NCBI GenBank assembly: GCA_964016885.1 | Contig: OZ024765.1 | Span: 13,826,001-13,890,000 of the forward strand | Direction of reading: 5' to 3' | Length of the DNA: 64,000 nucleotides | Origin: Eledone cirrhosa | Taxonomy: Eukaryota | In this document: piece by piece, positions 1 to 45,304 of the stretch | Numbering within the stretch: position 1 is the first letter of the stretch | Layout of the letters: every line of letters begins with the position of its first letter | The notes under the pieces: generated by a model | Told to the model about the DNA's origin: nothing | Seen by the model: only the letters and a program-made list of their open reading frames with translations | Databases searched by the model: none | Made by a program: the position numbers and the translations under genes

Positions 1-1711
1 GTTATGTTACATAAAGAGACAAGATCCAGACCTCCTTCATTGACTGAAGGGAGTGGAACTTGTCAAATAAGACAGAATTATATAGACAAAGAATGGTTGT
101 AAAATATAAGAGACAAACTTGTGTATAACAATATAGACAGAATTATATAGACAAAGACTGGTTGTAAAATATAAGAGACAAACTTGTGTATAACAATATA
201 GACAGAATTATATAGACAAAGACTGGTTGGAAAATATAAGAGACAAACTTGTGTATAACAATATAGACAGAATTATATAGACAAAGACTGGTTAGAAAAT
301 ATAAGAGACAAACTTGTGTATAACAATATAGACAGAATTATATAGACAAAGACTGGTTGTAAAATATAAGAGACAAACATATGTATAACAATACAGACAA
401 AGATTAATTGTAGACTAAACTAGACTAACATTTGTGTAATAACATAGATAGGGTTATATAGACAAAGACTGTTATCGAATTTACTAGGCAAACTTGTATA
501 TAACAATAGATAAAGTTATATAGACCAAGATTGGTTGTAATATATAGAAAACAAACTCGTGTATAACAATATAGACAGAATTATATAGACAAAGATTGGT
601 GTAGAATTTACAAGACAAACTTATGTAATATAAGCAATAACATAAACAATGTTATATAGACAAAGACTGGTTGTAAAATAAATAAGACAAACATGTATAT
701 AACAACATGTATAGAATTATATAGACCAGGAGTGTTATAGAACATACTATATAAAATTGTATTTAATAACATAGACAGAATTAGATAGACAAAGACTATT
801 GTTGAACATACAAGATAAACACGTTTAATTACAAACAGAATTATATAGGCAAACATTTGTGTAGCATTTACTAGACAAACTTGTGCATAACAACATATTT
901 AGGGTTATATAGACAAAGACTATTGTGTAATATACTAGACAAACAAATGTATAACAACATGGACAGAATTATATAGACACTGTTATAGAATATACTATAC
1001 AAACTTATGTATAATAAGTAATAATGTAGATGGGGTTATATAGACAAATGTTGGTTGTAAAATGTATGAGACAAACTTCAGTTTAATAACATAGACAAAA
1101 TTATATACACTAAAATTGGGTGAATAACATACTAGACAAACTTCTGTATAACAATATAAACAGAGTTATATAGACAAAGACTGTTGTAGAATATACGAAA
1201 CAAACTCACATGTAATAAGAAAGACAGCATTATAAAAACAAAGATTGGTTGTATAATATACCAAAGAAACTTGTGTATAAAACCATAGACAGAAATATAT
1301 AGACAAAGACTGGTTGTAGAACATACTAGACAAACTTGTGTGTAACACCTAATAACATAGATAGGGTTATATAGACAAAGATTGGTTGAAGAACATACTA
1401 GAAGGGATGACAGGAGATAAGACAATATTGACAAGATAGTAAATAATTCAGGGATGACATCTTGACAAACAGGGCCAGCAATATCATGTCCTGTCATAGT
1501 ATATTACTGACAACAGATGAGAGTTAATGTTGACAACACAGGGTTGGTTGACATGTTGACAGAGAGAACCAGAGTAACATGTCCTGTCATAATATATTAC
1601 TGACAGCATATATGACAATTAGTATTGACAAGACAATCAACAATACAGGGATGACATGTTGACAAACAGAGCCAGCAATAATAACATGTCCTCTCATAGT
1701 ATATTACTTAC

Positions 1712-1853
1712 GAAACAGTGGCTTAAAACAGCCATGTATATCCAGTATGAGTTTCACACTTTTACTAACATCATATTTGTCAGTTATGAATATTTGGATC
1801 TTGTTGGCTTGGAAACCATTTGGGAAATATACAGTTTCAGTAGCAGAAAATTT
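1712..1853 (-). CDS. Cassette 4 small exon
   Basis: 142 nt paralog. Confidence 0.88.
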
Positions 1854-2544
1854 CTGAAAATATTGAAAATCATGTGAATCATTCTAAATATCATTATAGA
1901 ACCTTCTGCATAATTATTATGCTCCCACTGTCAAAATATACTAAGTATTATAATACGTAAAATACTAAAATATCAAATGTGTTTGTAGATATTTTCATTT
2001 ACTGCTAAATTATTTCAGGATGTTAAGAGTTGAAGAAATTAATTTAATAAAAAAATATTTAGTAATCTACATAAATTATTTATAATGTGAAGTCTCCTAT
2101 AAAATGACAGCTATATCACTGAGTTTGAGAAGTTAAGGGTCAAAAGACTTGCTTAAGGGAGGTTTCGTCTCTGAAAACCTTCAGCTGTCCAGCTCACCCG
2201 AGAGTTTCTTACGACTTTGATAATTTTATTTTTAAAATGTTCTATAATCTGAAAATTATTTATATGAAGTCCCCTATATAATACAGTGACATAACTGAGT
2301 TAAAGAATTAATTAAATATTTGTTAATTTTATATAAAAATTATTTAGTAAACTTTGTTAACTATTTATAATATGAAGCCCCCTATAAAAGACAGAGACAT
2401 AATATGAAGTCCTCTATAAGAGACAGCAACCTAACATGAAGTCCCCTATAAAAGATAGCAACATAATATGATGTCCCCTATAAAAGACAGCTATACAATG
2501 TGAAGTCCCCCATAATATGACTGTGACATAAATGAGTTAAATAC

Positions 2545-3122
2545 CTTTCCAAATGCTTGGAAATGTTCTTGCTCTATTTTCCTGTACATTAACATAAAAC
2601 CTTTGATGTTTGTATGAACAATTAACTGTAAACTGGCCAAAGACACATCATAATTCTCACTGAGTTGGACGGTAATAACAACAAGTGGAGCTGAACTCTC
2701 AAACACCTCCTGGTCACGTCTACCTTGGACTCCAACGGGTCTTAAACGATATGTTGGTACAGTCTTGTCTGTAGTTTTTATCCACTCATCTTTGATGTAA
2801 ACTGGAGTTGATAAACCATTGCCTTTAACACAAGCCACCTCTCCCTCTGTTGGTGATGTTGTGGTGGTTTTTGGTGCTGTCATTGTTGTTGTGGTGGTTG
2901 TTGGTGTTGTTATTGTGGCTGTTGTTGTTGTTCTTGTTGCTGTGGTTGGTGTTGTTGTTGCTGTTGTTGGTGTTGTTCTTGTTGCTGTTGTTGGTGTTGT
3001 TGGTGTTGTTCTTGTTGTTGATGATCTCTCTGTTGTTATTGTTGTTGGTGTTCTTGTTATAGCTGTTGTTGTTGTTGTTGGTGTTCTTGTTATAGCTGTT
3101 GTTGTTGTTGTTTGTGGAACTT
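2545..3122 (-). CDS. Cassette 4 large exon
   Basis: Paralog; gttag/gtattt. Confidence 0.88.
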
Positions 3123-4633
3123 CTAACAACAAGAGATGATATTTTCAACATGGTTAATTATATGAGCTATATAAAGGTTTTATATATGGTTGATATTGTG
3201 TAGATTATGTTGTTATGTTACATAAAGAGACAAGATCCAGACCTCCTTCATTTACTGAATGGAGTGGAACTTGTCAAATAAGACAGAATTATATAGACAA
3301 AGACTGGTTGCAAAATATAAGAGACACACTTGTGTATAACAATATAGACAGAATTATATAGACAAAGACTGGTTGTAAAATATAAGAGACACACTTGTGT
3401 ATAACAATATAGACAGAATTATATAGACAAAGACTGGTTGTAAAATATAAGAGACAAACTTGTGTATAACAATATAGACAGAATTATATAGACCAAGACT
3501 GGTTGTAAAATATAAGAGATAAACTTATGTGTAATAACATAGATTGGGTTCTATAGACAAAGACTGTTGTAGAACTTACTAGACAAACTTTTGTTTAGTA
3601 AGATAGATAGGTTATATAGACACATACTATTGTATAGTATACAAGAAAAACTTGTATATAACAAAAACTTGTGTATAACAACTATTAACATAGATAAGGA
3701 TATATAGACAAAAATTGATTGTAGAATTTACTTTAAAACCTTGTGTATAACAATATAGGCAAGACACAGACTATTGTAGAATATATTAGACAAACATGTG
3801 TATAACAATATAGACAGTATTGTATAGATAGAGACTATTTTAAAACATGCTTGACAAACTTGCGTTAAATAACATAGGTAGAATTATATAGACACTATTG
3901 TATAATATTCAAGACAAACTTGTGTATTATAAGTAATAACATAGATAGGATTATATAGACAAAGACTGATTGTAAAATATACAAGACGAACTTCAGTTTA
4001 ATAACATAGACAAAAATTATATACACAAAGATTGGGTGAATAACACAGTAGACAAACTTCTTTTTACCATAAAAACAGAGTTATATAGACAAAGACTGTT
4101 GTAGAATATATGAAACAAACTCACATGTAATAAGAAAGACAGCATTATAAAAACAAAGATTGGTTGTAGAATATACGAAAGAAACTTGTGTATAAGACCA
4201 TAGACTGAAATATATACACAAAGACTGGTTGTAGAACATACTAGACAAACTTGTGTATAACACCTAATAACATACATAGGGCTATATAGACAAAGATTGG
4301 TTGAAGAACATACTAGAAGGAATGACAGGAGATAAGACAATGTTGACAAGATAGTAAATAATTCAGGGATGACATCTTGACAGACAGGGCCAGCAATATC
4401 ATGTCCTGTCACAGTTGATGAGACAGTTAATGTTAACAGTACAGGGATGACATGTTGACAGACAGAACCAGAAGTAACATGTCCTGTTGTAGTATATTAT
4501 TGACAGGCATATATGACAATTAGTATTGACAAGACAATCAACAATACAAAGATGATATATCGACAGAGAGGGATGACATGTTGACAAACAGAGCCAGCAA
4601 TAATAACATGTTCTCTCAAAGTATATTACTTAC

Positions 4634-4775
4634 GAAACAGTGGCTTAAAACAGCCATGTATATCCAGTATGAGTTTCACACTTTTACTAACATCATATCT
4701 GTCAGTTATGAATATTTGGATCTTGTTGGCTTGGAAACCATTTGGGAAATATACAGTTTCAGTAGCAGAAAATTT
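4634..4775 (-). CDS. Cassette 3 small exon
   Basis: 142 nt, KFSATETV...LDIHGC. Confidence 0.88.
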
Positions 4776-5467
4776 CTGAAAGTATTGAAAATCATGTGAA
4801 TCATTCTAAATATCATTATAGAACCTTCTGCATAATTATTATGCTCCCACTGTCAAAATATACTAAGTATTATAACACGTAAGATACTAAAATATCAAAT
4901 GTGTTTGTAGATATTTTCATTTACTGCTAAATTATTTCAGGATGTTAAGAGTTGAAGAAATTAATTTAATAAAAAATATATTTAGTAATCTACATAAATT
5001 ATTTATAATGTGAAGTCTCCTATAAAATGACAGCTATATCACTGAGTTTGAGAAGTTAAGGGTCAAAAGACTTGCTTAAGGGAGGTTTCTTCTCTGAAAA
5101 CCTTCAGCTGTCCAGCTCACCCGAGAGTTTCTTACAACTTTGATAATTTTATTTTTAAAATGTTCTATAATCTGAAAAATATTTATATGAAGTCCCCTAT
5201 ATAATACAGTGACATAACTGAGTTAAAGAATTAATTAAATATTTTTTAATTTTATATAAAAATTATTTAGTAAACTTTGTAAACTATTTATAATATGAAG
5301 CTCCCTATAAAAGACAGAGACATAATATGAAGTCCTCTATAAGAGACAACAACCTAACATGAAGACCCCTATAAAAGACAGAAACATAATATGAAGTCCC
5401 CGGTAAAAGACAGCTATACAATGTGAAGTCCCCTATAATATGACTGTGACATAAGTGAGTTAAATAC

Positions 5468-6088
5468 CTTTCCAAGTGGTTGGAAATGTTCTTGCTCTAT
5501 TTTCCTGTACATTAACAAAAAACCTTTGATGTTTGTATGAACAATTAACTGCAAACTGGCCAAAGACACATCATAATTCTCACTGAGTTGGACGGTAATA
5601 ACAACAAGTGGAGCTGAACTCTCAAACACCTCCTGGTCACGTCTACCTTGGACTCCAACGGGTCTTAAACGATATGTTGGTACAGTCTTGTCTGTAGTTT
5701 TTATCCACTCATCTTTGATGTAAACTGGACTTGATAAACCATTGCCTTTAACACAGGCCACCTCTCCCTCTGTTGGTGATGTTGTGGTGGTTGTTGGTGC
5801 TGTTATTGTTGTGGTGGTTGTTGGTGTTGTTCTTGTTATTGCTGTGGCTGTTGTAGATGTTGTTGGTGTTGTTCGTGCTGTTGTTGTTGCTGTTATTCTT
5901 GTTATTGCTGTGGCTGTTGTAGATTTTGTTATTGTTGCTGTTGTTGGTGTTGTTGGTTTTATTGCTGTGGCTGTTGTTGTTGTTGTTGCTGTTGTTGTTG
6001 GTATTGTTGTTGATGTTGATGCTGTTGTTGGTGGTGTTGTTGCTGTTATTGTCGTTGTTGTTGGTGTTGTTGCTGTTGTTGGTGGCGG

Positions 6089-6122
<34 letters not shown>

Positions 6123-6861
6123 TTTGTTGTTGTTGGTGGTGTTGTTGTTGTTGGTGTTGTTGCTGTTGTTGTTGTTGTTGTTGGTGTTCTTGTTGCTGTT
6201 GTTGGTGTTGCTGTTGTTGTCGTTGTTGCTTTTGTTGCTGGTGTTGTTGTTGTTGTTGATCTTCCTGTTGTTATTGTAGTTGGTGTTCTTGTTATAGCTG
6301 TTGTTGTTGTTGTGGTGGTTGTTGGTGTAGTTCCTGTTGAAGTTGTTGGTGTTGTTGTTGTTGTTGCTGTTCTTGTTGCTGTGGTTGGTATTGTTGTTGC
6401 TGTTGTTGATGTTGTTCTTGTTGCTGTTGTTGGTGTTGTTCTTGTTGCTGTTGTTGGTGTTGTTCTTGTTGTTGCTGTGGTTGGAGTAGTTCCTGTTGTT
6501 CTTGTTGAAGTTGTTGGTGTTGTTGCTGTTGTTGATGATCTCTCTGTTGTTATTGTTCTTGGTGTTCTTGTTATAGCTGTTGTTGTTGTTGTGGTGGTTG
6601 TTGGTGTAGTTCCTGTTGAAGTTGTTGGTGTTGTTGGTGTTGTTGTTGCTGTTGTTGGTGCTGTTCTTGTTGCTGTCGTTGGTATTGTTGTTGCTGTTGT
6701 TGGTGTTGTTCTTGTTGCTGTTGTTGGTGTTGTTCTTGTTGCTGTTGTTGGTGTTGTTCCTGTTGGTGTTGTTCTTGTTGTTCTTGTTGTTGATGAACTC
6801 TCTGTTGTTATTGTTGTTGGTGTTCTTGTTATAGCTGTTGTTGTTGTTGTTTGTGGAACTT
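5468..6861 (-). CDS. Cassette 3 large exon (~365-aa Thr-rich mucin tract + F5/8C-like N-half)
   Basis: Open frame of ACA/CCA/GCA codons; gttag/gtattt. Confidence 0.88.
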
Positions 6862-8548
6862 CTAACAACAAGAGATGATATTTTCAACATGGTTAATTAT
6901 ATGAGTTATATAAAGGTTTTATATATGGTTGGTATTGTGTAGATTATGTTGTTATGTTACATAGAGAGACAAGATCCAGACCTCCTTCATTTACTGAATG
7001 GAGTGGAACTTGTCAAATAAGACAGAATTATATAGACAAAGACTTGTTGTAAAATATAAGAGACAAACTTGTGTATAACAATATAGACAGAATTATATAG
7101 ACAAAGAATGGTTGTAAAATATAAGAGACAAACTTGTGTATAACAATATAGACAGAATTATATTGAAAAAGACTGGTTGTAAAATATAAGAGATAAACTT
7201 ATGTATAACAATACAGACAAAGATTAATTGTAGACTAAACTAGACAAACATTTGTGTAATAACATAGATAGGGTTATATAGACAAAGACTGTTATCGAAT
7301 TTACTAGGCAAACTTGTATATAACAATAGATAAAGTTATATAGACCAAGATTGGTTGTAATACATAGAAAACAAACTCGTGTATAACAATATAGACAGAA
7401 TTATATAGACAAAGATTAGTGTAGAATTTACAAGACAAACTTATGTAATATAAGCAATAACATAAACAATGTTATATAGACAAAGACTGGTTGTAAAATA
7501 AATAAGACAAACATGTATATAACAACATGTATAGAATTATATAGACCAGGAGTGTTATAGAACATACTATATAAAGTTGTATTTAATAACATAGACAGAA
7601 TTAGATAGACAAAGACTATTGTTGAACATACAAGATAAACACGTTTAATTACAAACAGAATTATATAGGCAAACATTTGTGTAGCATTTACTAGACAAAC
7701 TTGTGCATAACAACATACTTAGGGTTATATAGATAAACACTATTGTGGAATATACTAGACAAACAAATGTATAACAACATGGACAGAATTATATAGACAC
7801 TGTTGTAGAATATACTATACAAACTTATGTATAATAAGTAATAATGTAGATGGAGTTATATAGACAAATGTTGGTTGTAAAATGTACGAGACAAACTTCA
7901 GTTTAATAACATAGACAAAATTATATACACTAAAATTGGGTGAATAACATACTAGACAAACTTCTGTATAACAATATGAACAGAGTTATATAGACAAAGA
8001 CTGTTGTAGAATATACGAAACAAACTCACATGTAATAAGAAAGACAGCATTATAAAAACAAAGATTGGTTGTATAATATACCAAAGAAACTTGTGTATAA
8101 AACCATAGAGAGAAATATATAGACAAAGACTGGTTGTAGTACATACTAGACAAACTTGTGTGTAACACCTAATAACATAGATAGGGTTATATAGACAAAG
8201 ATTGGTTGAAGAACATACTAGAAGGGATGACAGGAGATAAGACATTATTGACAAGATAGTAAATAATTCAGGGATGACATCTTGACAAACAGGGCCAGCA
8301 ATATCATGTCCTGTCATATTATATTACTGACAACAGATGAGAGTTAATGTTGACAACACAGGGTTGACATGTTGACAGAGAGAACCAGAGTAACATGTCC
8401 TGTCATAATATATTACTGACAGCATATATGACAATTAGTATTGACAAGACAATCAACAATACAGGGATGATATCTTGACAGACAGGGATGACATGTTGAC
8501 AAACAGAGCCAGCAATAATAACATGTCCTCTCATAGTATATTACTTAC

Positions 8549-8690
8549 GAAACAGTGGCTTAAAGCAGCCATGTATATCCAGTATGAGTTTCACACTTTT
8601 ACTAACATCATATTTGTCAGTTATGAATATTTGGATCTTGTTGGCTTGGAAACCATTTGGGAAATCTACAGTTTCAGTAGCAGAAAATAC
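8549..8690 (-). CDS. Cassette 2 small exon
   Basis: 142 nt, same splice sites as paralogs. Confidence 0.88.
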
Positions 8691-9376
8691 CTGAAAATAT
8701 TGAAAATCTTGTGAATCATTCTAAATATCATTATAGGACCTTCTGCATAATTATTGTGCTCCCACTGCCAAAATATACTAAGTATTATAATACGTAAGAT
8801 ACTAAAATATCAAATGTGTTTGTAGATATTTTCATTTACTGCTAAATTATTTCAGGATGTTAAAAGTTAAAGAAATTAATTTAATAAAAGAATATTTAGT
8901 AATCTACATCATTTATTTATAATGTGAAGTCTCCTATAAAATGACAGCTATATCAGTTAGAGAAGTTAAGGGTCAAAAGACTTGCTTAGGGGAGGTTTTT
9001 TCTCTGAAAACCTTCAGCTGTCCAGCTCACCCGAGAGTTTCTTACGACTTTGATAATTTTATTTTTAAACTGTTCTATAATCTCAAAAATATTTATATGA
9101 AGTCCCCTATAAAAGACAGTGACATAACTGAGCTAAAGAATTAATTAAATATTTGTTAATTTTATATAAAAATTATTTAGTAAACTTTGTAAACTATTTA
9201 TAATATGAAGCCCCTATAAAAGACAGAGACATAATATGAAGTCCTCTATAAGAGACAGCAACCTAACATGAAGTCCCCCATAAAAGACAGAAACATAATA
9301 TGAAGTCTCCTATAAAAGACAGCTATACAATATGAAGTCCCCTATAATATGACTGTGACATAAGTGAGTTAAATAC

Positions 9377-9906
9377 CTTTCCAAATGCTTGGAAATGTTC
9401 TTGCTCTATTTTCCTGTACGTTAACATAAAACCTTTGATGTTTTTATGAACAATTAACTGCAAACTGGCCAAAGACACATCATAATTCTCACTGAGTTGG
9501 ACGGTAATAACAACAAGTGGAGCTGAACTTTCAAACACTTCTTGGTCACGTCTACCTTGGACTCCAACGGGTCTTAAACGATATGTTGGTACAGTCTTGT
9601 CTGTAGTTTTTATCCACTCATCTTTGATGTAAACTTCACTTGATAAACCATTGCCTTTAACACAAGTCACCTCTCCCTCTGTGGGTTTTGTTGTGGTGGT
9701 TGTTGGTGCTGTTATTGTTGTGGTGGTTGTTGGTGTTGTTATTGTTGTTGTTTTTGTTGTTGGTGTTGTTATTGTTGCTGTTGTTGGTGGTATTGTTGCT
9801 GTTGTTGGTGTTGTTCTTGTTGCTGGTGTTGTTCTTGTTGAAGTTGTTGGTGTTGTTGATGATCTCTCTGTTGTTATTGTTGTTGGTGTTGTTGTTTGTG
9901 GAACTT
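9377..9906 (-). CDS. Cassette 2 large exon (Thr-rich + F5/8C-like N-half)
   Basis: Paralog of cassette 1; gttag/gtattt. Confidence 0.88.
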
Positions 9907-11696
9907 CTAACAACAAGAGATGATATTTTCAACATGGTTAATTATATGAGTTATATAAAGGTTTTATATATGGTTGATATTGTGTAGATTATGTTGTTAT
10001 GTTACATAAAGAGACAAGATCCAGACCTCCTTCATTTACTGAATGGAGTGGAACTTGTCAAATAAGACAGAATTATATAGACAAAGAATGGTTGTAAAAT
10101 ATAAGAGACAAACTTGTGTATAACAATATAGACAGAATTATATAGACAAAGACTGGTTGTAAAATATAAGAGACAAACTTGTGTATAACAATATAGACAG
10201 AATTATATAGACAAAGACTGGTTGGAAAATATAAGAGACAAACTTGTGTATAACAATATAGACAGAATTATATAGACAAAGACTGGTTAGAAAATATAAG
10301 AGACAAACTTGTGTATAACAATATAGACAGAATTATATAGACAAAGACTGGTTGTAAAATATAAGAGACAAACTTATGTATAACAATACAGACAAAGATT
10401 AATTGTAGACTAAACTAGACAAACATTTGTGTAATAACATAGATAGTGTTATATAGACAAAGACTGTTATCGAATTTACTAGGCAAACTTGTATATAACA
10501 ATAGATAAAGTTATATAGACCAAGATTGGTTGTAATACATAGAAAACAAACTCGTGTATAACAATATAGACAGAATTATATAGACAAAGATTGGTGTAGA
10601 ATTTACAAGACAAACTTATGTAATATAAGCAATAACATAAACAATGTTATATAGACAAAGACTGGTTGTAAAATAAATAAGACAAACATGTATATAACAA
10701 CATGTATAGAATTATATATACCAGGAGTGTTATAGAACATACTATATAAAATTGTATTTAATAACATAGACAGAATTAGATAGACAAAGACTATTGTTGA
10801 ACATAAAGATAAACATGTTTAATTACAAACAGAATTATATAGGCAAACATTTGTGTAGCATTTACTAGACAAACTTGTGCATAACAACATATTTAGGGTT
10901 ATATAGACAAAGACTATTGTGTAATATACTAGACAAACAAATGTATAACAACATGGACAGAATTATATAGACACTGTTATAGAATATACTATACAAACTT
11001 ATGTATAATAAGTAATAATGTAGATGGGGTTATATAGACAAATGTTGGTTGTAAAATGTACGAGACAAACTTCAGTTTAATAACATAGACAAAATTATAT
11101 ACACTAAAATTGGGTGAATAACATACTAGACAAACTTCTGTATAACAATATAAACAGAGTTATATAGACAAAGACTGTTGTAGAATATACGAAACAAACT
11201 CACATGTAATAAGAAAGACAGCATTATAAAAACAAAGATTGGTTGTATAATATACCAAAGAAACTTGTGTATAAAACCATAGAGAGAAATATATAGACAA
11301 AGACTGGTTGTAGAACATACTAGACAAACTTGTGTGTAACACCTAATAACATAGATAGGGTTATATAGACAAAGATTGGTTGAAGAACATACTAGAAGGG
11401 ATGACAGGAGACAATATTGACAAGATAGTAAATAATTCAGGGATGACATCTTGACAAACAGGGCCAGCAATATCATGTCCTGTCATAGTATATTACTGAC
11501 AACAGATGAGAGTTAATGTTGACAACACAGGGTTGACATGTTGACAGAGAGAACCAGAGTAACATGTCCTGTCATAATATATTACTGACAGCATATATGA
11601 CAATTAGTATTGACAAGACAATCAACAATACAGGGATGACATGTTGACAAACAGAGCCAGCAATAATAACATGTCCTCTCATAGTATATTACTTAC

Positions 11697-11838
11697 GAAA
11701 CAGTGGCTTAAAACAGCCATGTATATCCAGTATGAGTTTCACACTTTTACTAACATCATATTTGTCAGTTATGAATATTTGGATCTTGCTGGCTTGGAAA
11801 CCATTTGGGAAATATACAGTTTCAGTAGCAGAAAATAC
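11697..11838 (-). CDS. Cassette 1 small exon: C-half of F5/8C-like domain (VFSATETVYFPNGFQASKIQIFI...LILDIHGCFKPLF)
   Basis: tttcag/gtaagt; ends LDIHGC, like the discoidin LELYGC terminus. Confidence 0.88.
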
Positions 11839-12456
11839 CTGAAAATATTGAAAATCTTGTGAATCATTCTAAATATCCTTATAGGACCTTCTGCATAATT
11901 ATTGTGCTCCCACTGCCAAAATATACTAAGTATTATAATACGTACGATACTAAAATATCAAATGTGTTTGTAGATATTTTCATTTACTGCTAAATTATTT
12001 CAGATGTTAAGAGTTAAAGAAATTAATTTAAAAGAATATTTAGTAATCTACATCATTTATTTATAATGTGAAGTCTCCTATAAAATGACAGCTATATCAG
12101 TTAGAGAAGTTAAGGGTCAAAAGACTTGCTTAGGGGAGGTTTTTTCTCTGAAAACCTTCAGCTGTCCAGCTCACCCGAGAGTTTCTTACGACTTTGATAA
12201 TTTTATTTTTAAACTGTTCTATAATCTCAAAAATATTTATATGAAGTCCCCTATAAAAGACAGTGACATAACTGAGCTAAAGAATTAATTAAATATTTGT
12301 TAATTTTATATAAAAATTATTTAGTAAACTTTGTAAACTATTTATAATATGAAGCCCCTATAAAAGACAGAAACATAATATGAAGTCTCCTATAAAAGAC
12401 AGCTATACAATATGAAGTCCCCTATAATATGACTGTGACATAAGTGAGTTAAATAC

Positions 12457-12911
12457 CTTTCCAAATGGTTGGAAATATTCTTGCTCTATTTTCCTGTACA
12501 TTAACATAAAACCTTTGATGTTTGTATGAACAATTAACTGTAAACTGGCCAAAGACACATCATAATTCTCACTGAGTTGGACGGTAATAACAACAAATGG
12601 AGCTGAACTTTCAAACACCTCTTGGTCACGTCTACTTTGGACTCCAACGGGTCTTAAACGATATGTTGGTACAGTCTTGTCTGTAGTTTTTACCCACTCA
12701 TCTTTGATGTAAACTGGACTTGATAAACCATTGGCTTTAACACAGGCCACCTCTCCCTCTGTTGGTGCTGTTATTGCTGTTGTGGTGGTTGTTGGTGGTT
12801 GTGTTGGTATTATTGGTGCTCTTCTTGTTGTTGTTTCTATTGGTGTTGTTGTTGTTGTTATAGATATTCCTGGTGTTGTTCCTGTTACTATTGTTGTTGA
12901 CTTTGTGGCTT
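12457..12911 (-). CDS. Cassette 1 large exon: short Thr-rich tract + N-half of F5/8C-like domain
   Basis: gctag/gtattt; PTEGEVACVK.NGLSSPVYIKDEW...FGK. Confidence 0.88.
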
Positions 12912-14473
12912 CTAGCAACAAGAGATTATTTTTAACATGGTTAATTTTAGAAAACATTTCCAAATATTAACAACCACATGACAGACAGGGCCAGATTTAT
13001 AGGGGTCAGTGAATAAGGACCCCTTGAAACCCCCTGAAAATTCATAGCTATATTTTCCAAACAGGGTCTGTTTTCACCCTTTAACATTTAAACCAGCTGT
13101 AACTGGCTGCTCATACTTATGTTAAGGTATTGTTATCAAAATAAATAATATCAAAATCTCATAGATTCGATATTATGTGAGATAAAGCATTTACTGAGGA
13201 AATAAAATAGTATATATAGAGTAATGTACATGTTAAAGGGTTAAAAAGCTTGTTGTTGTATGAGGGTCGCAGCTAAGCTGGTGTCCCAGCACATGCATAG
13301 AACATTTATTTATTTATTGGTAATTATATTTGAAGACCCCCCCTATGTCACAAATGACCATGGGATTTGCCCCTAGAAAGTTCCCCTCCGAGGCACAAGT
13401 CCGGGCAAGGTTGTTTCTGGAAGACCAGCAGTCACCCATGTATACCAGTCTCCCCCCTCTCCACACCACTGATGTTGTCCAAGGGAAAGGCAATGGCTGA
13501 TACAGCTTGGCACCAGTGACATCACAATTTACTCTATATATACACCCTCTATACTAAACATATCCACTCTATACTCAATATATACACTATATACTCAATA
13601 TATACACTATATACTCAATATATACACTCTATACTCAATATATACACTATATATATCCAATATATACACTATATATTCTATTTATACACCCTATATACTC
13701 AATATATACACTCTATACTATATATACACTATATATATATAGTGTTGTCCAAGGAAAAGTGCTACAGCTGATAGGTTGTGAATATATAGAAATATATATC
13801 AGCTGATATATATATACAGCTGATATATATATACAGCTGATATATATTTCTATATATTCACAACCTATATAATATCAACCTTTATATAAAACCTATATAT
13901 AGTTGATATAATTATAATAATTATTTCTACTTTTGGCACAAGGCCATAAATTACCCAGTGCATTACTGGTACTTTATTTTATCGACCCCGTAAGGATGAA
14001 AGGTAAAGTTAACCTCGGCGGGATTTGAACTCCGATCATAAAGGGAGGTAACTCTATGCTACAAAGCATGGTGTCTGACCCTCTACCAATACTGCCAATC
14101 CAAATTATAATAATGTGGTGTTAATATAATTACTGTGGTGAAGGTACATGGCTTAGTGGTTAGAGCATTGGGCTTGCAATTGAAAGGTTGTGAGTTCGAT
14201 TCTCGGACCAAGTGATGTGTTGTATCCTTGAGCAAGACACTTTATTTCATGTTGCTCCAGTTTACTCAGCTGAAGCACTTTCCCTTGGACAACACTATAT
14301 ATATATATATATATTGTATATATAGTGTATATATTACCTTTGGTAATGGAGTAGTTATATTTTGTGTTGTTCACTTTCTAATTAAATAGCTCTGTTCTAT
14401 ACATAGAGCACTCTTTTTTCCTTTGTTTTTCCTTCGGAATTACCTAACACACACACACAGATATATATATATA

Positions 14474-20933: not shown

Positions 20934-21960
20934 TGACTTTCGGAAACATTTTTCCATGCTCAGAGTTGCTGAAGCATGGAACAAACTACCTGCATCAGTT
21001 GTTAGCTGCCGTGACACTGCATCCTTTAAAACCTCCATGGAACAAACTACCTGCATCAGTTGTTAGCTGCCGTGACACTGCATCCTTTAAAACCTCCATG
21101 GAACAAACTACCTGCATCAGTTGTTAGCTGTCGAGACACTGCATCCTTTAAAACCTCCATGGAACAAACTACCTACATCAGTTGTTAGCTGTCGAGACAC
21201 TGCATCCTTTAAAACCTCCATGGAACAAACTACCTGCATCAGTTGTTAGCTGCCGTGACACTGCATCCTTTAAAACCTCCATGGAACAAACTACCTGCAT
21301 CAGTTGTTAGCTGTCGAGACACTGCATCCTTTAAAACCTCCATAGAACAAACTACCTGCATCAGTTGTTAGCTGTCGAGACACTGCATCCTTTAAAACCT
21401 CCATAGAACAAACTACCTGCATCAGTTGTTAGCTGTCGAGACACTGCATCCTTTAAAACCTCCATAGAACAAACTACCTGCATCAGTTGTTAGCTGTCGA
21501 GACACTGCATCCTTTAAAACCTCCATGGAACAAACTACCTGCATCAGTTGTTAGCTGTCGAGACACTGCATCCTTTAAAACCTCCATAGAACAAACTACC
21601 TGCATCAGTTGTTAGTTGTCGAGACACTGCATCCTTTAAAACCTCCATAGAACAAACTACCTGCATCAGTTGTTAGTTGTCGAGACACTGCATCCTTTAA
21701 AACCTCCATAGAACAAACTACCTGCATCAGTTGTTAGCTGTCGAGACACTGCATCCTTTAACACCTCCATGCTTCCTGAGATTCGCCAACACTACACCTG
21801 ATACCCCCCCCCCCCTCCATACACATACACACATGTATATCCTGACACATACACTGTTCATTTCCCTGACATTTGTACATTATTCTATGTACTATACATG
21901 CACCTTTGATGAGTTGTAGTGCACCTGAGCACTGTACACAATAATTTCATTATTATTATA
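20934..21960 (+). mobile_element. CR1/L2-like LINE 3' end with a 61-bp segment amplified ~13x (20975-21770)
   Basis: RVAEAWNKLPASVVSC..TASFK unit; ends in an (ATT)n-type tail. Confidence 0.75.
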
Positions 21961-22376: not shown

Positions 22377-22493
22377 TGCATTCAATTTCATCAGAACCAT
22401 CCCCACAATCATCATGGCCGTCACATTGAACAGGGAGGGGCAGACATTTGCCAGTCAAGCATCGGAAATGTCTGGGGTTCTCACATCTGATCG
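22377..22493 (-). CDS. Exon: LDLa repeat 4 ([17 protein letters not shown]...[16 protein letters not shown])
   Basis: LDLa consensus; ttctag/gtgagt. Confidence 0.93.
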
Positions 22494-22788
22494 CTAGAAA
22501 ACAAATAGATTTATCAGAAATGCTGGCATATATTGAATGTATGTATACACCCTACCCATATATATATATGTACATACACATAATCATATATATATATATT
22601 GAACTTTACAACACCACCTGCCTCTTTGAGGTCAAATACCAACCCTACTAGCATCTACAAACTGACCAATGAGAATTAAGACTATTCCTGCTGACAACAT
22701 TAAATTATTCCTAACAAGCTCATATGTCCCAAAGCTCTGATACCATCAACACTATAAACACAGAGCTGGGATATCTAAGAACTGACTA

Positions 22789-22844
22789 ACTGCCTGATGA
22801 GGTCATAGCCATTCAATGGCTATCATCGAAATATATATAGCAGT
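22789..22844 (+). ncRNA. Minimal type I hammerhead ribozyme
   Basis: ACTGC-CTGATGA-stem II(ATAGCCAT/ATGGCTAT)-GAAA-TATATA-TA-GCAGT, then AATAAA. Confidence 0.8.
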
Positions 22845-22950
22845 AAATAAAGGATTATGAGTTCATGCAATTGACTTATGTTTCGTCACTATATATATAT
22901 ATATATATACAAAATATTGACAAATGAAAAATATTCTCATAATTAAAATA

Positions 22951-23020
22951 TATACTTTATTATATATATTTCAAAGGTACTGTGTTGTTTTTTCAGTACG
23001 TTCTCATCAGACAAAATATA
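22951..23020 (-). ncRNA. Type I hammerhead ribozyme
   Basis: TATTTTGT-CTGATGA-(GTACTG/CAGTAC)-GAAA-TATATA-TA-ATAAAGTA. Confidence 0.7.
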
Positions 23021-23104
23021 TGATTAATCAGAGCACTCTTTTTTCCTGTACCTTTCCGATGGAATTACTTCACACATATATATATATATGTATAGATAGA
23101 TAGA

Positions 23105-23421
23105 TATACTATAAGGATAAGGAACAAGGATTCAGTGTTGCATCATACCATATTTAATAACACATTACATATGTTTCACTATCAATCAGCCCGAGGCAAG
23201 ATCCATTATAGATCAAACCTAACTCTGTAATCGAAAGGTCGTCAGATATGCTTAGTATACAAGTTCGTCTCCAAGCATATCTGACCACCTTTCTATTCCA
23301 GAGACAGGTTCGATCTATAATAGATCTTGCCCCGAGCTGATTGATAGTGAAACATATGTAATATGTTATTAAATATGTTATGATGCAACACTGAATCCTT
23401 CTTCCTTATCCTTATAGTATT
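23105..23421. ncRNA. Inverted repeat carrying a hammerhead pair (minus 23161-23250 with CTGACGA; plus 23276-23365 with CTGACCA variant), long stem II
   Basis: CATAT-CTGACGA-...-GAAA-CATATG-TA-ATGTG; ~145-bp arms. Confidence 0.7.
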
Positions 23422-23495
23422 ATACTCTGCTCTGAACGAGCATCAAGTGCTCAACCGGCATACCGCCTATGGACACATTTTTCTAGCAACCATAC

Positions 23496-23548
<53 letters not shown>

Positions 23549-23553
<5 letters not shown>

Positions 23554-23791
23554 AAAAAGAGATGAAATCGAAAATGCAACTGAAGTCTTATTTTTTTTTT
23601 AAATATATATATTTATTTGGTTCCTTTACCGGTTTCGCAGTTGTGAGAAAAACCACAGACCCTCCATCTCAACTCACCTTTTGAAAAGCAGAAGAACTGC
23701 GAAACCGGTAAAGGAACCAAATAAATATATATATTTTTTAAAAAAAATAAGACTTCAGTTGCATTTTCGATTTCATCTCTTTTTCTTTATA
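23549..23791. ncRNA. Inverted repeat (~93-bp arms) with degenerate hammerhead at 23677-23714 (+)
   Basis: CCTT-TTGAAAA-GCAG/CTGC-GAAA-CCGG-TA-AAGG; core mutated. Confidence 0.55.
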
Positions 23792-24106
23792 CTTCCACTC
23801 GTGTAGGACACCTCGGTTATTTTTCATTTTGTAAAAAAAACCTCACTTTCTAATATATATATATATATATACAAATGGAAATTTAGTAAAATCAAAGTTT
23901 GGACTGTGGCCAAGCTAACGATATACAATTAGGAATGTGCAGCAAAGCACTCGATAAGGTTGTGTCACCTTAGAGTAATAACATACGTTAGATAGCTTGA
24001 CAAATTGAAAACTGCGACAGGTGAGCCCAGCCACATGAAACCAAAGCAGCGAAAAAAACCAATCAGGTATTGACAAACATATATATTTATATATATATGC
24101 ATGTGC

Positions 24107-24138
<32 letters not shown>

Positions 24139-24203
24139 TTGAAGTATTTCCGTAGGAAAGGTAAAGGAAAAGAGAGTGCTCTATGTAGGCTACAGAGCTT
24201 TTT

Positions 24204-24406
24204 AGTTATGTAATAAACAACATAAGATAATTATTTCATTTACCAAAGGTTTCACGAAGACAGACGAGCTTGGCACATGTCGGCCTTCAATCATCAGAAT
24301 AATATTAATTTCATTCTGACGATTGAAGGCAGACGTATGTGCCAAGCTCGTCTGTCTTCGTGAAACCTTTGGTAAATGAAATAATTATCTTATGTTGTTT
24401 ATTACA

Positions 24407-24411
<5 letters not shown>
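24204..24411. ncRNA. Inverted repeat carrying a hammerhead pair (minus 24235-24302, plus 24311-24379)
   Basis: TCATT-CTGACGA-(GAAGGCAGACG/CGTCTGTCTTC)-GAAA-CCTTTGG-TA-AATGA. Confidence 0.8.
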
Positions 24412-24476
<65 letters not shown>

Positions 24477-24545
24477 ACAAAAATAAAGGTTTGGGTGAGG
24501 AAGAAGTGTAAAATAAAGTTAGAATGTAGCTAGATCAATATTTAC

Positions 24546-24668
24546 CATCACATTTAGCTTCATCAGATCTGTCGGCAGGGCCACAATCTAATTCTCCGTC
24601 ACATGAAAACTTGGCTGGAATACAACGGCCACTGTCACAGGCAAATTCATTGTCACTACATTTGATTT
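24546..24668 (-). CDS. Exon: LDLa repeat 3
   Basis: [14 protein letters not shown]...CDGELDC...SDEAKC; ctgcag/gtaaat. Confidence 0.93.
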
Positions 24669-27710: not shown

Positions 27711-28940
27711 CAGGGGAAAATGCGGGCGCATGTAAAGAAATATTCTTAAATTAATAAACCTAGAAAAGTAAAGGACAAGTTATTACACCTGGAAAAGTAA
27801 AGGACAAGAAAACTTCTTCTTAAAACTTCTTAAAATATTGCAGCTATAGTATAAATTTGAATAATAAAAAATATTTGATTTAAATATACATAGAAAGTGA
27901 TAAATTCTAATAATACAGTTGACTCTCTAATTGATAATAATACTAATTTATGATCATTTATTTAATTTTGTGATCCTAATTTACACCATAGTGGTTGGGT
28001 CATTAAATAAATATACTCTATTTTACTTTACTAAATGGGACTGAAAAAATGAGTGACAATTATAAACATCAAATAAAACAAAATTTTGGCGTGTAAATGA
28101 CACTAACAATTAATTAATAATTAATTAGGGAGCCAACTGTAATGATAAATAATAACAAATTATAATTGTTTAATAATGAAATTTAAGACCTGTCAGAGAT
28201 CAAAATAACCAATCTACATTTTTAGGTAGAGTAAAATTAGACTACAATTAAAAATTAAACATTGTCTAATTCAACAGTTCATCTAATGAATTGATGAATT
28301 CACTATGATTGATTGATTCACTATAAATGAATAATTGATGAATTGACTTTTACCTAATTTTGCCCCTTGAGATGTTGAATTTTACTATATTATAAAAGAA
28401 ATCTGTAATACTCATAAAAAGTGCAATTATATAATGCACTGTTTTTGATTTATTTTACTGCATTATTTTATAACTAAATTTTTAAAAATATAATTTGATT
28501 AAGAGTGAACATTTTTAAATATCTTATAACATAAATTAATAAATTGTACATATTAATTATTATTATTATTAATTATTATTATTAATTATTATTATTATTA
28601 ATTATTGTACAAATTATTGTACAAATTTTATTTTAAAAAGATTAATTTGTATACACCAAGAAAAAAATTAAGTATACAGTAGTCAACTCTCCCTATAAGA
28701 CAGTCATTTTTCCAGTCCTTTAAAGTGATATTTTTTTAACAATTAACCTATAATTATTTATTTTTAGTTTTATAATCTAAATATTTTTTTTCAAATTTAG
28801 ACTTTAGCTGCAATATTTTAAGAAGTTTTAAGAAGAAGTTTTCTTGTTCTTTACTTTTCCAGGTGTAATAACTTGTCCTTTACTTTTCTAGGTTTATTAA
28901 TTTAAGAACATTTCTTTACATGCGCCCGCATTTTTCCCTG
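27711..28940. mobile_element. Non-autonomous Tc1/mariner-type element, ~135-bp TIRs, TA TSD
   Basis: TA|CAGGGGAAAATGCGGGCGCATG...CATGCGCCCGCATTTTTCCCTG|TA; very AT-rich interior. Confidence 0.85.
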
Positions 28941-29065
28941 TAATCCACTTTTTTTCCAGGCAATGCAAGGATATTATATTAATATTAATAAAAATATTTA
29001 TCAACAAATAAGTTAAATAATAATAATAAATAATAATGAATAGGAAGAAGAGCAGATAGGAAAAG

Positions 29066-29138
29066 TAATCAGGGTGGGAATCGAACCCACGACCTTCAGA
29101 TTGCCGGTCTGCTGCTCTACCGACTGAGCTACCTGACC
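29066..29138 (-). tRNA. tRNA-like gene or pseudogene, anticodon GGC (nominally Ala)
   Basis: 73-nt cloverleaf, A box TAGCTCAGTCGG, B box GGTTCGATTCC, TTTT 2 nt downstream; C at position 33 and a mismatch in the anticodon stem. Confidence 0.65.
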
Positions 29139-32092: not shown

Positions 32093-32369
32093 CTGACAAC
32101 ATGGTAGATAACATCAGTGTTAGTATGGTAGCAATAGAACAGGCATGAGTGATAGTATGGCAGTGATAGTATGATAGGTATAGTACAGACATGTATGTTA
32201 GTATGGTAGCAATAGAGCAGACATCACTGATAGTATGGCAGTGATAGTATGATAGGTATAGTACAGACATGTATGTTAGTATGGTAGGCATAGTATGGTT
32301 GTTTATGTTAGTATAAAAGGAGTAGAACATACCTCAGTTAGTATGACAGCAGTAGTATAGACATGTATA

Positions 32370-33880
32370 TTAGTATGGCAGGAATAGAACAGGACTTAAT
32401 GATAGTGTAGGAGAAATAGAACAGCTCTTTATGTTAGTATGGCAGGAATAGAACAGGACTTAATGATAGTGTAGGAGAAATAGAACAGCTCTTTATGTTA
32501 GTATGGTAGGTATAGAAGAGGTCTTAATGATAGTGTGGGAGAAATAGAACAGCTCTTTATGTTAGTATGGTAGATATAGAAGAGGCCTTAATGATAGTGT
32601 GGGAGAAATAGAACAGCTCTTTATGTTAGTATGGTAGATATAGAAGAGGCCTTAATGATACAGTGGGAGAAATAGAACAGCTCTTTATGTTAGTATGGTA
32701 GATATAGAAGAGGCCTTAATGATAGAGTGGGAGAAATAGAACAGCTCTTTATGTTAGTATGGTAGATATAGAAGAGGCCTTAATGATACAGTGGGAGAAA
32801 TAGAACAGCTCTTTATGTTAGTATGGTAGATATAGAAGAGGCCTTAATGATAGAGTGGGAGAAATAGAACAGCTCTTTATGTTAGTATGGTAGATATAGA
32901 AGAGGCCTTAATGATAGAGTGGGAGAAATAGAACAGCTCTTTATGTTAGTATGGTAGATATAGAAGAGGCCTTAATGATACAGTGGGAGAAATAGAACAG
33001 CTCTTTATGTTAGTATGGTAGATATAGAAGAGGCCTTAATGATACAGTGGGAGAAATAGAACAGCTCTTTATGTTAGTATGGTAGATATAGAAGAGGCCT
33101 TATTGATAGAGTGGGAGAAATAGAACAGCTCTTTATGTTAGTATGGTAGGTATAGAAGAGGCTTTATTGATAGCGTGGGAGAAATAGAACAGCTCTTTAT
33201 GTTAGTATGGTAGATATAGAAGAGGCTTTATTGATAGCGTGGGAGAAATAGAACAGCTCTTTATGTTAGTATGGTAGATATAGAAGAGGCCTTAATGATA
33301 CAGTGGGAGAAATAGAACAGCTCTTTATGTTAGTATGGTAGATATAGAAGAGGCCTTAATGATAGAGTAGGAGAAATAGAACAGCTCTTTATGTTAGTAT
33401 GGTAGATATAGAAGAGGCCTTAATGATACAGTGGGAGAAATAGAACAGCTCTTTATGTTAGTATGGTAGATATAGAAGAGGCCTTATTGATAGAGTGGGA
33501 GAAATAGAACAGCTCTTTATGTTAGTATGGTAGGTATAGAAGAGGCTTTATTGATAGCGTGGGAGAAATAGAACAGCTCTTTATGTTAGTATGGTAGATA
33601 TAGAAGAGGCTTTATTGATAGAGTGGGAGAAATAGAACAGCTCTTTATGTTAGTATGGTAGATATAGAAGAGGTCTTAATGATAGAGTGGGAGAAATAGA
33701 ACAGCTCTTTATGTTAGTATGGTAGATATAGAAGAGGCCTTAATGATACAGTGGGAGAAATAGAACAGCTCTTTATGTTAGTATGGTAGATATAGAAGAG
33801 GTCTTATTGATAGAGTGGGAGAAATAGAACAGCTCTTTATGTTAGTATGGTAGATATAGAAGAGGTCTTATTGATAGTGT
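32370..33880. repeat. 64-bp minisatellite, ~23 copies
   Basis: tagtatggtagatatagaagaggccttaatgat...gaacagctctttatgt. Confidence 0.97.
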
Positions 33881-33981
33881 GGTGGGAATAACAGGATTAG
33901 AACATCAACTTATGTTAATATGACATATGACTCTTTTGTGTGTAAGAAATGTGAAAATGTAAATATTTGGTGACAACTTAC

Positions 33982-45262: not shown

Positions 45263-45304
45263 CCATGTCAATGAGATGAATAAGAAATATAAAAATATGT
45301 AACT

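What the first reader, a model, noticed from the sequence alone, without database searches (positions are those of the whole stretch)
22600..24470. Ribozyme hotspot: about seven hammerhead motifs and three hairpins in one 2-kb intron
Seen: the intron between LDLa exons 3 and 4 is almost entirely back-to-back ribozyme elements of about five families separated by (TA)n spacers. Inference: serial insertion into TA microsatellites, each event leaving fresh target.
Basis: partly seen in the sequence, partly recalled or inferred. Interest (0 to 1): 0.7.

Follow-up and report, generated by a model that had tools for sequence, protein, structure and literature searches.

The report
Stacked jumping-gene ends in an intron
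This 2-kb intron is filled by seven pieces of different high-copy repeats carrying six intact hammerhead-ribozyme motifs, which were likely pasted one after another into TA repeats by Penelope-type jumping-gene enzymes; it is an extreme case of a known kind of element that is common in this genome, and the ribozymes are predicted to be folded shut in the host RNA.

Summary
The 2,052-nt intron between two LDLa exons has six intact type I hammerhead cores (1000 shuffles: mean under 0.01), one mutated core, one half motif, and three long inverted repeats (not hairpin ribozymes). It consists of seven pieces from seven repeat families, each multi-copy, each found elsewhere without the others, and each ending in a microsatellite (115 of 120 copies). 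Piece A is the pseudo-LTR of a Hydra-clade Penelope-like element. F is part of a non-coding ~600-nt hammerhead unit. B, C, E and G show the Penelope footprint but were not tied to an ORF. Hammerheads are common here (42 per 500 kb), and copies abut other families 8 times more often than uniform placement predicts, so this seven-piece chain is the extreme tail of a genome-wide pattern. Serial insertion is likely, but its order and the 'fresh target' step were not shown (no empty allele obtained). Plant SaTar arrays are a published precedent for the architecture. This scan has already reported the same element system on other DNA of this genome.

The parts
24546..24668 (-). Host LDLa exon upstream of the intron
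   Evidence: Pfam PF00057 3.6e-12; splice sites; single copy in the assembly
22377..22493 (-). Host LDLa exon downstream of the intron
   Evidence: Pfam PF00057 6.3e-12; splice sites; single copy in the assembly
22558..24476 (.). Whole array with its (TA)n spacers; about 133 nt of the intron lie outside it
22600..22889 (+). Piece A: 5'-truncated pseudo-LTR of a Hydra-clade Penelope-like element; hammerhead core at 22794, predicted cut after 22839
   Evidence: 1618 first-look candidates, best copies 98-99% identical; follows RT and GIY-YIG frames in L116 and L117; runs into the 5' UTR and ORF in L207, L208, L210
22910..23025 (-). Piece B: 5'-truncated end of family B, short 3' end; core at 23010, predicted cut after 22961
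23030..23075 (+). Piece G2: last 46 nt of the tail of a sister family of G, joined 5'-to-5' to B through a 5-nt fold-back and no TA
   Evidence: 14 of 14 other copies end in (CA)/(TA)n, and 3 of 14 passed my hammerhead descriptor upstream; the junction was seen in no other of 40 scored hits
23106..23498 (.). Piece C: two-armed insertion. Minus arm 23106-23272 (intact core 23245, short end); plus arm 23273-23498 (core mutated to CUGACCA, 78-nt tail 23421-23498)
23551..23850 (.). Piece E: two-armed insertion. Minus arm to 23642 (half ribozyme, short end); plus arm 23641-23850 (U3-A8 core at 23681, 59-nt tail)
23871..24079 (-). Piece F: 3' part of a non-coding ~600-nt unit; the family's long-stemmed type I hammerhead lies just upstream of where this copy starts
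   Evidence: unit 612 nt in L071 and 598 nt in L073, longest ATG frame 54-58 aa
24140..24410 (.). Piece G: two-armed insertion. Minus arm with 63-nt tail 24140-24202 (core 24297); plus arm with short end (core 24316)

Best explanation
The block is a non-nested stack of seven pieces from seven repeat families, likely written into (TA)n tracts in six or seven separate events by Penelope-like (Hydra-clade) retrotransposon enzymes. Shown: the separate families, the fixed microsatellite-bounded 3' ends, the two alternative 3' ends (with or without a tail), the 5'-to-5' arm pairs, and the link of family A to an RT-GIY-YIG ORF. Inferred from published Penelope biochemistry: the endonuclease nicks AT-rich DNA on both strands, each nick primes reverse transcription at one of two internal start sites downstream of the hammerhead, both cDNAs stop early and are joined 5'-to-5', which gives a hairpin with TA on both sides. 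Inferred: each insertion splits one TA tract into two, which lengthen by slippage and take later insertions, so pieces pile up side by side. The hammerheads are passengers and probably do not cut the host pre-mRNA.
For: Family A follows RT and GIY-YIG frames and precedes an ORF with RWR, ADKT/ADKS, YRDD, CxCx5C and YIGST motifs in 3 of 15 ORF loci. There the element continues with a short AT-rich word, not (TA)n, so the tract is not encoded by the element. 3' ends are followed by a microsatellite in 115 of 120 copies (A 19/19, B 17/19, C 16/19, E 19/19, F 14/14, G 16/16, G2 14/14). There are two end classes: B 12 copies at 51-62 nt and 10 at 143-154 nt past the cut site (of 27); G 13 at 31-40 and 10 at 96-103 (of 26). 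All 3 window hairpins pair one short with one long end. Same-family neighbours are mostly 5'-to-5' without TA (83 of 103); different-family neighbours are mostly linked through TA (44 of 48). The two arms of one insertion agree at shared polymorphic sites more than random arms in E (15% vs 33% mismatch) and G (4% vs 15%), permutation p 0.0005 each. Neighbour rate is 30 of 208 sides against 0.0175 uniform. Predicted stem I pairing is 0.0 for all 6 motifs with 150 or 300 nt of context.
Against: No ORF-linked copy was found for B, C, E, F, G or G2; the one search aimed at G upstream sequence found none in 20 loci. No empty allele was obtained, so order and target regeneration are untested. The arm test was not significant for B (p 0.27) or C (p 0.40), and two E insertions had discordant arms (6 of 14 and 7 of 12 sites). 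Private differences of the window pieces are all 0-1.4%, so there is no clear ladder of ages. Flank enrichment of cores was absent for B (0.026 per kb) and C (0.081 per kb) against 0.084 background. Pfam recognised only one of 11 retroelement frames, weakly (GIY-YIG, E 0.0027, below cut-off). Hydra membership rests on motifs and a by-eye comparison with the paper's alignment, not a tree.
Confidence: 0.82

Rival explanations
1. Passive concentration. The same elements inserted independently into a TA-rich, weakly constrained spot; earlier insertions did not create targets for later ones. The elements are the same, only the 'fresh target' step is dropped.
For: Hammerhead count per 10 kb follows TA-tract count (Spearman 0.52, p 1e-4). 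In the background sample only 2 of 485 merged TA tracts have an insertion on both sides, and 5 links were found among 59 insertions. Focal copies were chosen as best matches, so they are young and may be biased.
Against: Only about 133 nt of the intron lie outside the array, too little for several separate old tracts. A copy's side has a neighbour 2.7 times more often (0.144) than a background TA-tract side (0.054). Tracts at A 3' ends have a median of 16 units (n 19) against 8 for background tracts of 5 or more units (n 856).
Confidence: 0.2
2. The three hairpin pieces are MITEs (non-autonomous DNA transposons) that target TA, as in plant SaTar arrays, and the hammerheads are incidental.
For: Long inverted repeats flanked by TA; the plant precedent for such arrays is made of Mutator-like elements (PMC5907723, passages).
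Against: Arm lengths and the central junction vary from copy to copy, single arms are common, and the outer ends are asymmetric (tail on one side only). Each arm reads as a hammerhead pointing outward.
Confidence: 0.04
3. The array was kept or built by selection as a regulatory module of the LDLa gene: host-sense hammerheads cut the pre-mRNA, or the long hairpins serve as editing or splicing signals.
For: Three intact cores lie on the host-sense strand (23010, 23245, 24297), and the three hairpins would form 99-146 base pairs in the pre-mRNA (-146 to -234 kcal/mol).
Against: The pieces are 95.7-99.3% identical to dispersed copies, so they are recent. One core is mutated. The motifs are predicted to be sequestered. 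Penelope hammerheads with weak palindromic helix III cut poorly alone and need a dimer or the element's protein (PMC4209133, PMC11167929).
Confidence: 0.06
4. One multi-copy composite element, or an assembly artefact.
For: No contig or read piece listed spans the whole block.
Against: Each family occurs alone elsewhere; the B|G2 junction is unique among 40 scored hits; both flanking exons are single copy; the pieces carry private differences. Short-read contigs are expected to break in such repeats.
Confidence: 0.03

Closest known systems
Hydra clade of C-terminal EN+ Penelope-like elements (Craig et al. 2021, PMC8557442; passages, section 11 and supplement rows read)
   Same: RT followed by a GIY-YIG endonuclease, RW[KR], DK[TS] and CxCx5C motifs, a hammerhead in the pseudo-LTR, (TA)n insertion preference, inverted 5'-truncated copies, an optional tail. 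Hydra-1_Obim and two octopus Naiads are listed there with (TA)n preference.
   Different: Family A's protein and ribozyme differ from the Hydra-1_Obim entries seen in the supplement. Tails here are 59-100 nt against 30-40 bp. The passages read do not describe mixed-family arrays. Only family A was tied to an ORF.
Minimal type I hammerheads of Penelope-like elements (Cervera and De la Pena 2014, PMC4209133; parts 1-2 of 4 read)
   Same: Type I topology, short helix I, small palindromic helix III, the U3-A8 core variant, pairs on opposite strands 100-700 bp apart, mostly from truncated elements.
   Different: Helix II is up to 61 nt in C and 77 nt in F. The density here (about 2 x 10^5 by extrapolation) exceeds the 2,000-9,000 per genome quoted there.
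Poseidon PAc mechanism (Frangieh et al. 2024, PMC11167929; parts 1-2 of 4 read)
   Same: AT-rich cleavage and extension on both strands, two internal start sites that define the tail, hammerhead not needed for insertion and active only with the protein.
   Different: A different clade, shown in vitro; nothing was assayed here.
Plant SaTar arrays (Valdes Franco et al. 2018, PMC5907723; passages read)
   Same: Mixed-family, non-nested arrays joined by (TA)n; about 30% of elements linked to another (here 30 of 104 focal copies); occasional fusions with no spacer.
   Different: SaTars are Mutator-like DNA transposons in plants. These pieces are retroposed, 5'-truncated and ribozyme-bearing, in an animal.
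Metazoan non-LTR retrozymes (Cervera and De la Pena 2020, PMC7229834, passages; Li et al. bioRxiv 10.64898/2026.07.22.740005, part 1 of 5)
   Same: F is a non-coding unit with a type I hammerhead that occurs in partial head-to-tail tandem.
   Different: The F unit (about 600 nt) is longer than the 150-450 bp quoted; no dimer with two complete ribozymes was seen; circular RNA was not tested.

Membership tests
Type I hammerhead ribozyme | CUGAnGA (or U3-A8) core, GAAA and UH triplet in type I order with stems I-III | tested here: met
   6 motifs; shuffle means 0.003 and 0.009. Stems II of B, C and G lack tight closing pairs next to the core.
Type I hammerhead ribozyme | Match to an Rfam hammerhead model | tested here: not met
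   No hit at gathering score or E<=10. That Rfam models miss these minimal forms is my recollection, not tested.
Type I hammerhead ribozyme | Stem pairing kept while sequence changes | tested here: met
   Across 21 families stem I sequences differ but pair (selected for by the descriptor); helix III, of which only the outer pair is required, is palindromic in 13 of 21 families and 22 of 42 background motifs. No formal covariation test was run.
Type I hammerhead ribozyme | Self-cleavage | not testable with these tools
   No assay; folding predicts sequestration in context.
Hydra-clade Penelope-like element (piece A) | Single RT plus C-terminal GIY-YIG ORF between pseudo-LTRs | tested here: met
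   A lies 3' of the ORF in L116 and L117 and 5' of it in L207, L208, L210; all copies seen are frameshifted.
Hydra-clade Penelope-like element (piece A) | RWK, DKT and CxCX5C motifs | tested here: met
   RWR at the expected place in 5 of 15 loci, ADKT or ADKS in 7 of 15, CNCRDPSLC in 11 of 15; definition from section 11.
Hydra-clade Penelope-like element (piece A) | Absence of the CCHH motif; placement in the Hydra clade by phylogeny | not tested
   Only a by-eye comparison with the supplement's alignment.
Hydra-clade Penelope-like element (piece A) | (TA)n insertion preference | tested here: met
   19 of 19 copies.
Penelope-mobilised sequence (pieces B, C, E, G, G2) | Fixed 3' ends with optional tail, variable 5' truncation, 5'-to-5' inverted copies | tested here: met
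Penelope-mobilised sequence (pieces B, C, E, G, G2) | Own RT-EN ORF (autonomous) or none (rider) | tested here: inconclusive
   None found in the fetched loci; only G was searched upstream on purpose.
Non-LTR retrozyme (piece F) | Non-coding tandem unit with a type I hammerhead | tested here: inconclusive
   Partial tandems in 2 of 14 loci, hammerhead in 4 of 14; no long ORF; no two-ribozyme dimer seen.
Non-LTR retrozyme (piece F) | Expressed as circular RNA | not testable with these tools
   No run on record as RNA holds the stretch.
Hairpin ribozyme | Loop A and loop B conserved motifs | tested here: not met
   No Rfam hit; a scan with recalled motifs gave one 2-mismatch match inside E's hammerhead and no loop B match.
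MITE / SaTar (Mutator-like) | Fixed terminal inverted repeats at both ends of a unit of fixed size | tested here: not met
   Arms vary in length, single arms are common, and ends are asymmetric.

The most novel reading that the evidence does not exclude
Hydra-type Penelope enzymes build self-extending, non-nested arrays in animal genomes: every insertion splits and lengthens a TA tract that attracts the next one, so a ~150-nt intron grew to 2 kb within a short time. The B|G2 junction is a single event in which the two nicked strands were primed on RNAs of two different families, which would show that the enzyme can load two independent templates. This would be an animal retroelement counterpart of plant SaTar arrays and a measurable driver of intron growth.
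Probability: 0.35. Interest if true: 0.55.

Novelty: new member of a known kind. Interest (0 to 1): 0.3.

Why it matters
Each ingredient is published: Penelope hammerheads, TA targeting, inverted arms, tails, and microsatellite-linked arrays in plants. What this locus adds is a compact test case. Seven recent pieces sit between two single-copy exons, so one long PCR across individuals and species could read out the insertion order, test whether insertions regenerate their own target, and decide whether B and G2 arrived together. It also shows how an intron can grow more than tenfold without nesting. A role in regulating the host gene is unlikely.

Tried and rejected
Rfam scans found no ribozyme in the block or in F-family loci. 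No RNA holder was listed. Laying four runs of the same species label gave no presence/absence information: repeat-derived contigs swamp the block and no listed piece spans it. No laying of other organisms' runs was obtained, so the congener test is open. The assembly holds no second copy of either exon that could show an empty allele. The Penelope ORFs beside E copies in L078, L093 and L095 belong to other families; no E copy follows them. A search for a G-linked ORF led only to TG/TA-rich upstream sequence. The first adjacency and chain counts used a library contaminated with flanking SINE sequence and are superseded. The B-tail row was faulty (the probe included TA) and is superseded. Three of the five different-family 5'-to-5' junctions proved to be one family split by my clustering; two remain (window B|G2, and L075). 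A scrambled (type SGC) hammerhead, a lead from earlier notes, was considered for F; F fits ordinary type I order with long stems. The fixed 3' end of A resembles a reversed half hammerhead, but it is simply the sequence that leads into the 5' UTR.

Full report
Observation. The block lies in a 2,052-nt intron (22494-24545) of a minus-strand gene, between two exons that match Pfam Ldl_recept_a. Rfam finds no ribozyme there. A descriptor of my own (core, GAAA, UH triplet, stems I-III) finds six intact type I hammerhead cores at + 22794, - 23010, - 23245, + 23681, - 24297 and + 24316. The strict and relaxed forms each find five; shuffles average 0.003 and 0.009 per block. The motif at 23681 has the U3-A8 core described for Penelope-like elements (PMC4209133). 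A seventh core at + 23281 is mutated and a half motif lies at - 23636. All six would cut after UA. The three hairpins are long inverted repeats, each holding the ribozyme on both arms.

Seven families, not one element. Searches of the own genome gave 1618 (A), 3116 (B), 1218 (C), 192 (E), 2667 (F), 1625 (G) and 2161 (B/G2 junction query) first-look candidates, of which 40 were scored each time; these are lower bounds, not copy numbers. In the fetched loci each family stands without the others in this order. The 3' end in ribozyme sense is followed by a microsatellite in 115 of 120 other copies. The five exceptions are two B copies and three C copies, one of which shows the long tail.

What the pieces are. 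Copies of A extend 5' through a TA/TG-rich UTR into GIY-YIG and RT frames (Pfam GIY-YIG only at E 0.0027). In 3 of 15 loci fetched with the RT sequence, A also stands upstream and runs directly into the 5' UTR and an ORF. The ORF motifs RWR, ADKT, YRDD, CxCx5C and YIGST fit the Hydra clade as defined in section 11 of PMC8557442, where almost all families insert into (TA)n; I took this lead from earlier notes of the scan and checked the motifs, but built no tree. F is the 3' third of a unit of 598-612 nt with no long ORF, seen in partial tandem in 2 of 14 loci and with a long-stemmed type I hammerhead in 4 of 14; it resembles a retrozyme. B, C, E, G and G2 were not tied to an ORF. They share the Penelope footprint: two alternative 3' ends, variable 5' truncation, and 5'-to-5' arm pairs (83 of 103 same-family neighbours). 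E copies tend to start at one 5' position, which suggests a short non-coding RNA, though the query biases this.

Mechanism. Frangieh et al. (PMC11167929) showed for another Penelope protein that it cuts and extends both strands of AT-rich DNA, starts at two internal sites whose spacing is the tail, and does not need hammerhead cleavage. That accounts for hairpins with one short and one long end, as in all three here. Arms of one insertion share polymorphisms more than random arms in E and G (p 0.0005 each) but not significantly in B or C, so both arms usually come from one source. The B|G2 junction is the exception: two families joined 5'-to-5' through a 5-nt fold-back with no TA. It is either one event with two templates or a second insertion that lost the spacer; I cannot tell which.

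Is it a hotspot? I fetched 50 stretches of 10 kb at round coordinates on the larger contigs (chosen by me, not drawn at random). They hold 42 cores (4 after shuffling), about 2 x 10^5 genome-wide by extrapolation, and at most 3 in any 1.9 kb. Ten neighbouring stretches hold 9 cores in 100 kb, so the surroundings are average. The block, at 6 in 1.9 kb, is about 38-fold denser. With a cleaned library of 18 families, 59 insertions lie in the 500 kb; among 104 focal copies 74 stand alone, 29 are in pairs and 1 in a triple, and the window's chain of 7 is the longest in 182 loci. A geometric model with the observed neighbour rate (0.144 per side) expects about 3 such chains per genome and uniform placement about 1e-5; the figure is rough because the library is incomplete and the background sample shows a lower link rate. 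So the block is a rare extreme of a general tendency and needs no special mechanism.

Fresh target. For: the element itself does not encode (TA)n, tracts at A 3' ends are longer than background (median 16 against 8 units), different families are joined through TA in 44 of 48 cases, and only about 133 nt of the intron lie outside the array. Against: TA-rich regions hold more motifs anyway, B and C flanks show no enrichment of cores, ages do not separate clearly, and no empty allele was obtained. The step is likely but unproven.

Effect on the host. Three intact cores are in host sense. Folding predicts that stem I does not form for any of the six with 150-300 nt of context, and that C, E and G make hairpins of 99-146 base pairs. 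Published minimal Penelope hammerheads cut weakly and as dimers. Cleavage of the pre-mRNA is therefore unlikely; editing of the hairpins is possible but untested.

Comparison and novelty. Mixed-family, non-nested arrays joined by (TA)n are described for Mutator-like elements in plants, with about 30% of elements linked (PMC5907723). My searches of the held library listed no paper on such arrays of Penelope ends in an animal; a recent octopus repeat annotation has no occurrence of 'ribozyme' in its main text (PMC13282606, passages). Arkhipova et al. 2013 (PMC3846280, passages) describe inverted pseudo-LTRs, tails and junction palindromes; Eckert et al. 2023 (PMC10085705, passages) was read for the permuted-ribozyme lead. 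Most subscription papers and bioRxiv supplements are outside the library. That the genome is an octopus or close relative comes from earlier notes of the scan and my recollection of its SINE, not from a test here. The scan has reported this element system many times on other pieces of this genome. Verdict: real, explained by known biology, unusually dense; interest 0.3.

Noticed in passing
window 29065-29138 (-): tRNA gene scored 66.3 bits by Rfam and called tRNA-Ala with anticodon GGC by ARAGORN; that anticodon is rare in eukaryotes by my recollection. It lies near mirror-image repeats at 27751-27835 and 28816-28900.
   Followed up: no
window 25903, 34948, 35929, 43401, 43604, 52926, 53003, 59911: Eight further type I hammerhead hits in the window; 52926/53003 form another two-armed insertion and 43401/43604 a tail-to-tail pair across TA.
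   Followed up: partly
L121:3-1772 with L093:2300-2450: A Hydra-type copy with long open RT and endonuclease frames separated by one stop; its upstream hammerhead (family of window 25903 and 53003 by resemblance) leads straight into the reading frame.
   Followed up: partly
L120:890-4560 and L123:4169-5999: A second, Neptune-like Penelope lineage (label by my reading of motifs) with its own hammerhead, next to Hydra-type fragments; these loci are piles of several ORF-bearing elements.
   Followed up: no
L075:1316-1709: A second 5'-to-5' junction of two different families with no TA spacer, one of them family F.
   Followed up: partly
L224 versus L230: Within family G2 the core occurs both as C3-G8 and as U3-A8, a compensatory change inside one family.
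   Followed up: no
window 1-13000: A unit of about 3-3.5 kb repeated four times, made of 65-nt and 32-nt minisatellites and a (TGT)n tract.
   Followed up: no
window 20975-21771, 32366-33882, 45304-47805: Homogeneous intronic or intergenic minisatellites: 61 nt x 13 (97%), 64 nt x 24 (96%), 47 nt x 53 (95%).
   Followed up: no
L206:1-620: A diverged F-like sequence sits directly upstream of the 5' UTR of a family A ORF, in place of A's own pseudo-LTR.
   Followed up: no
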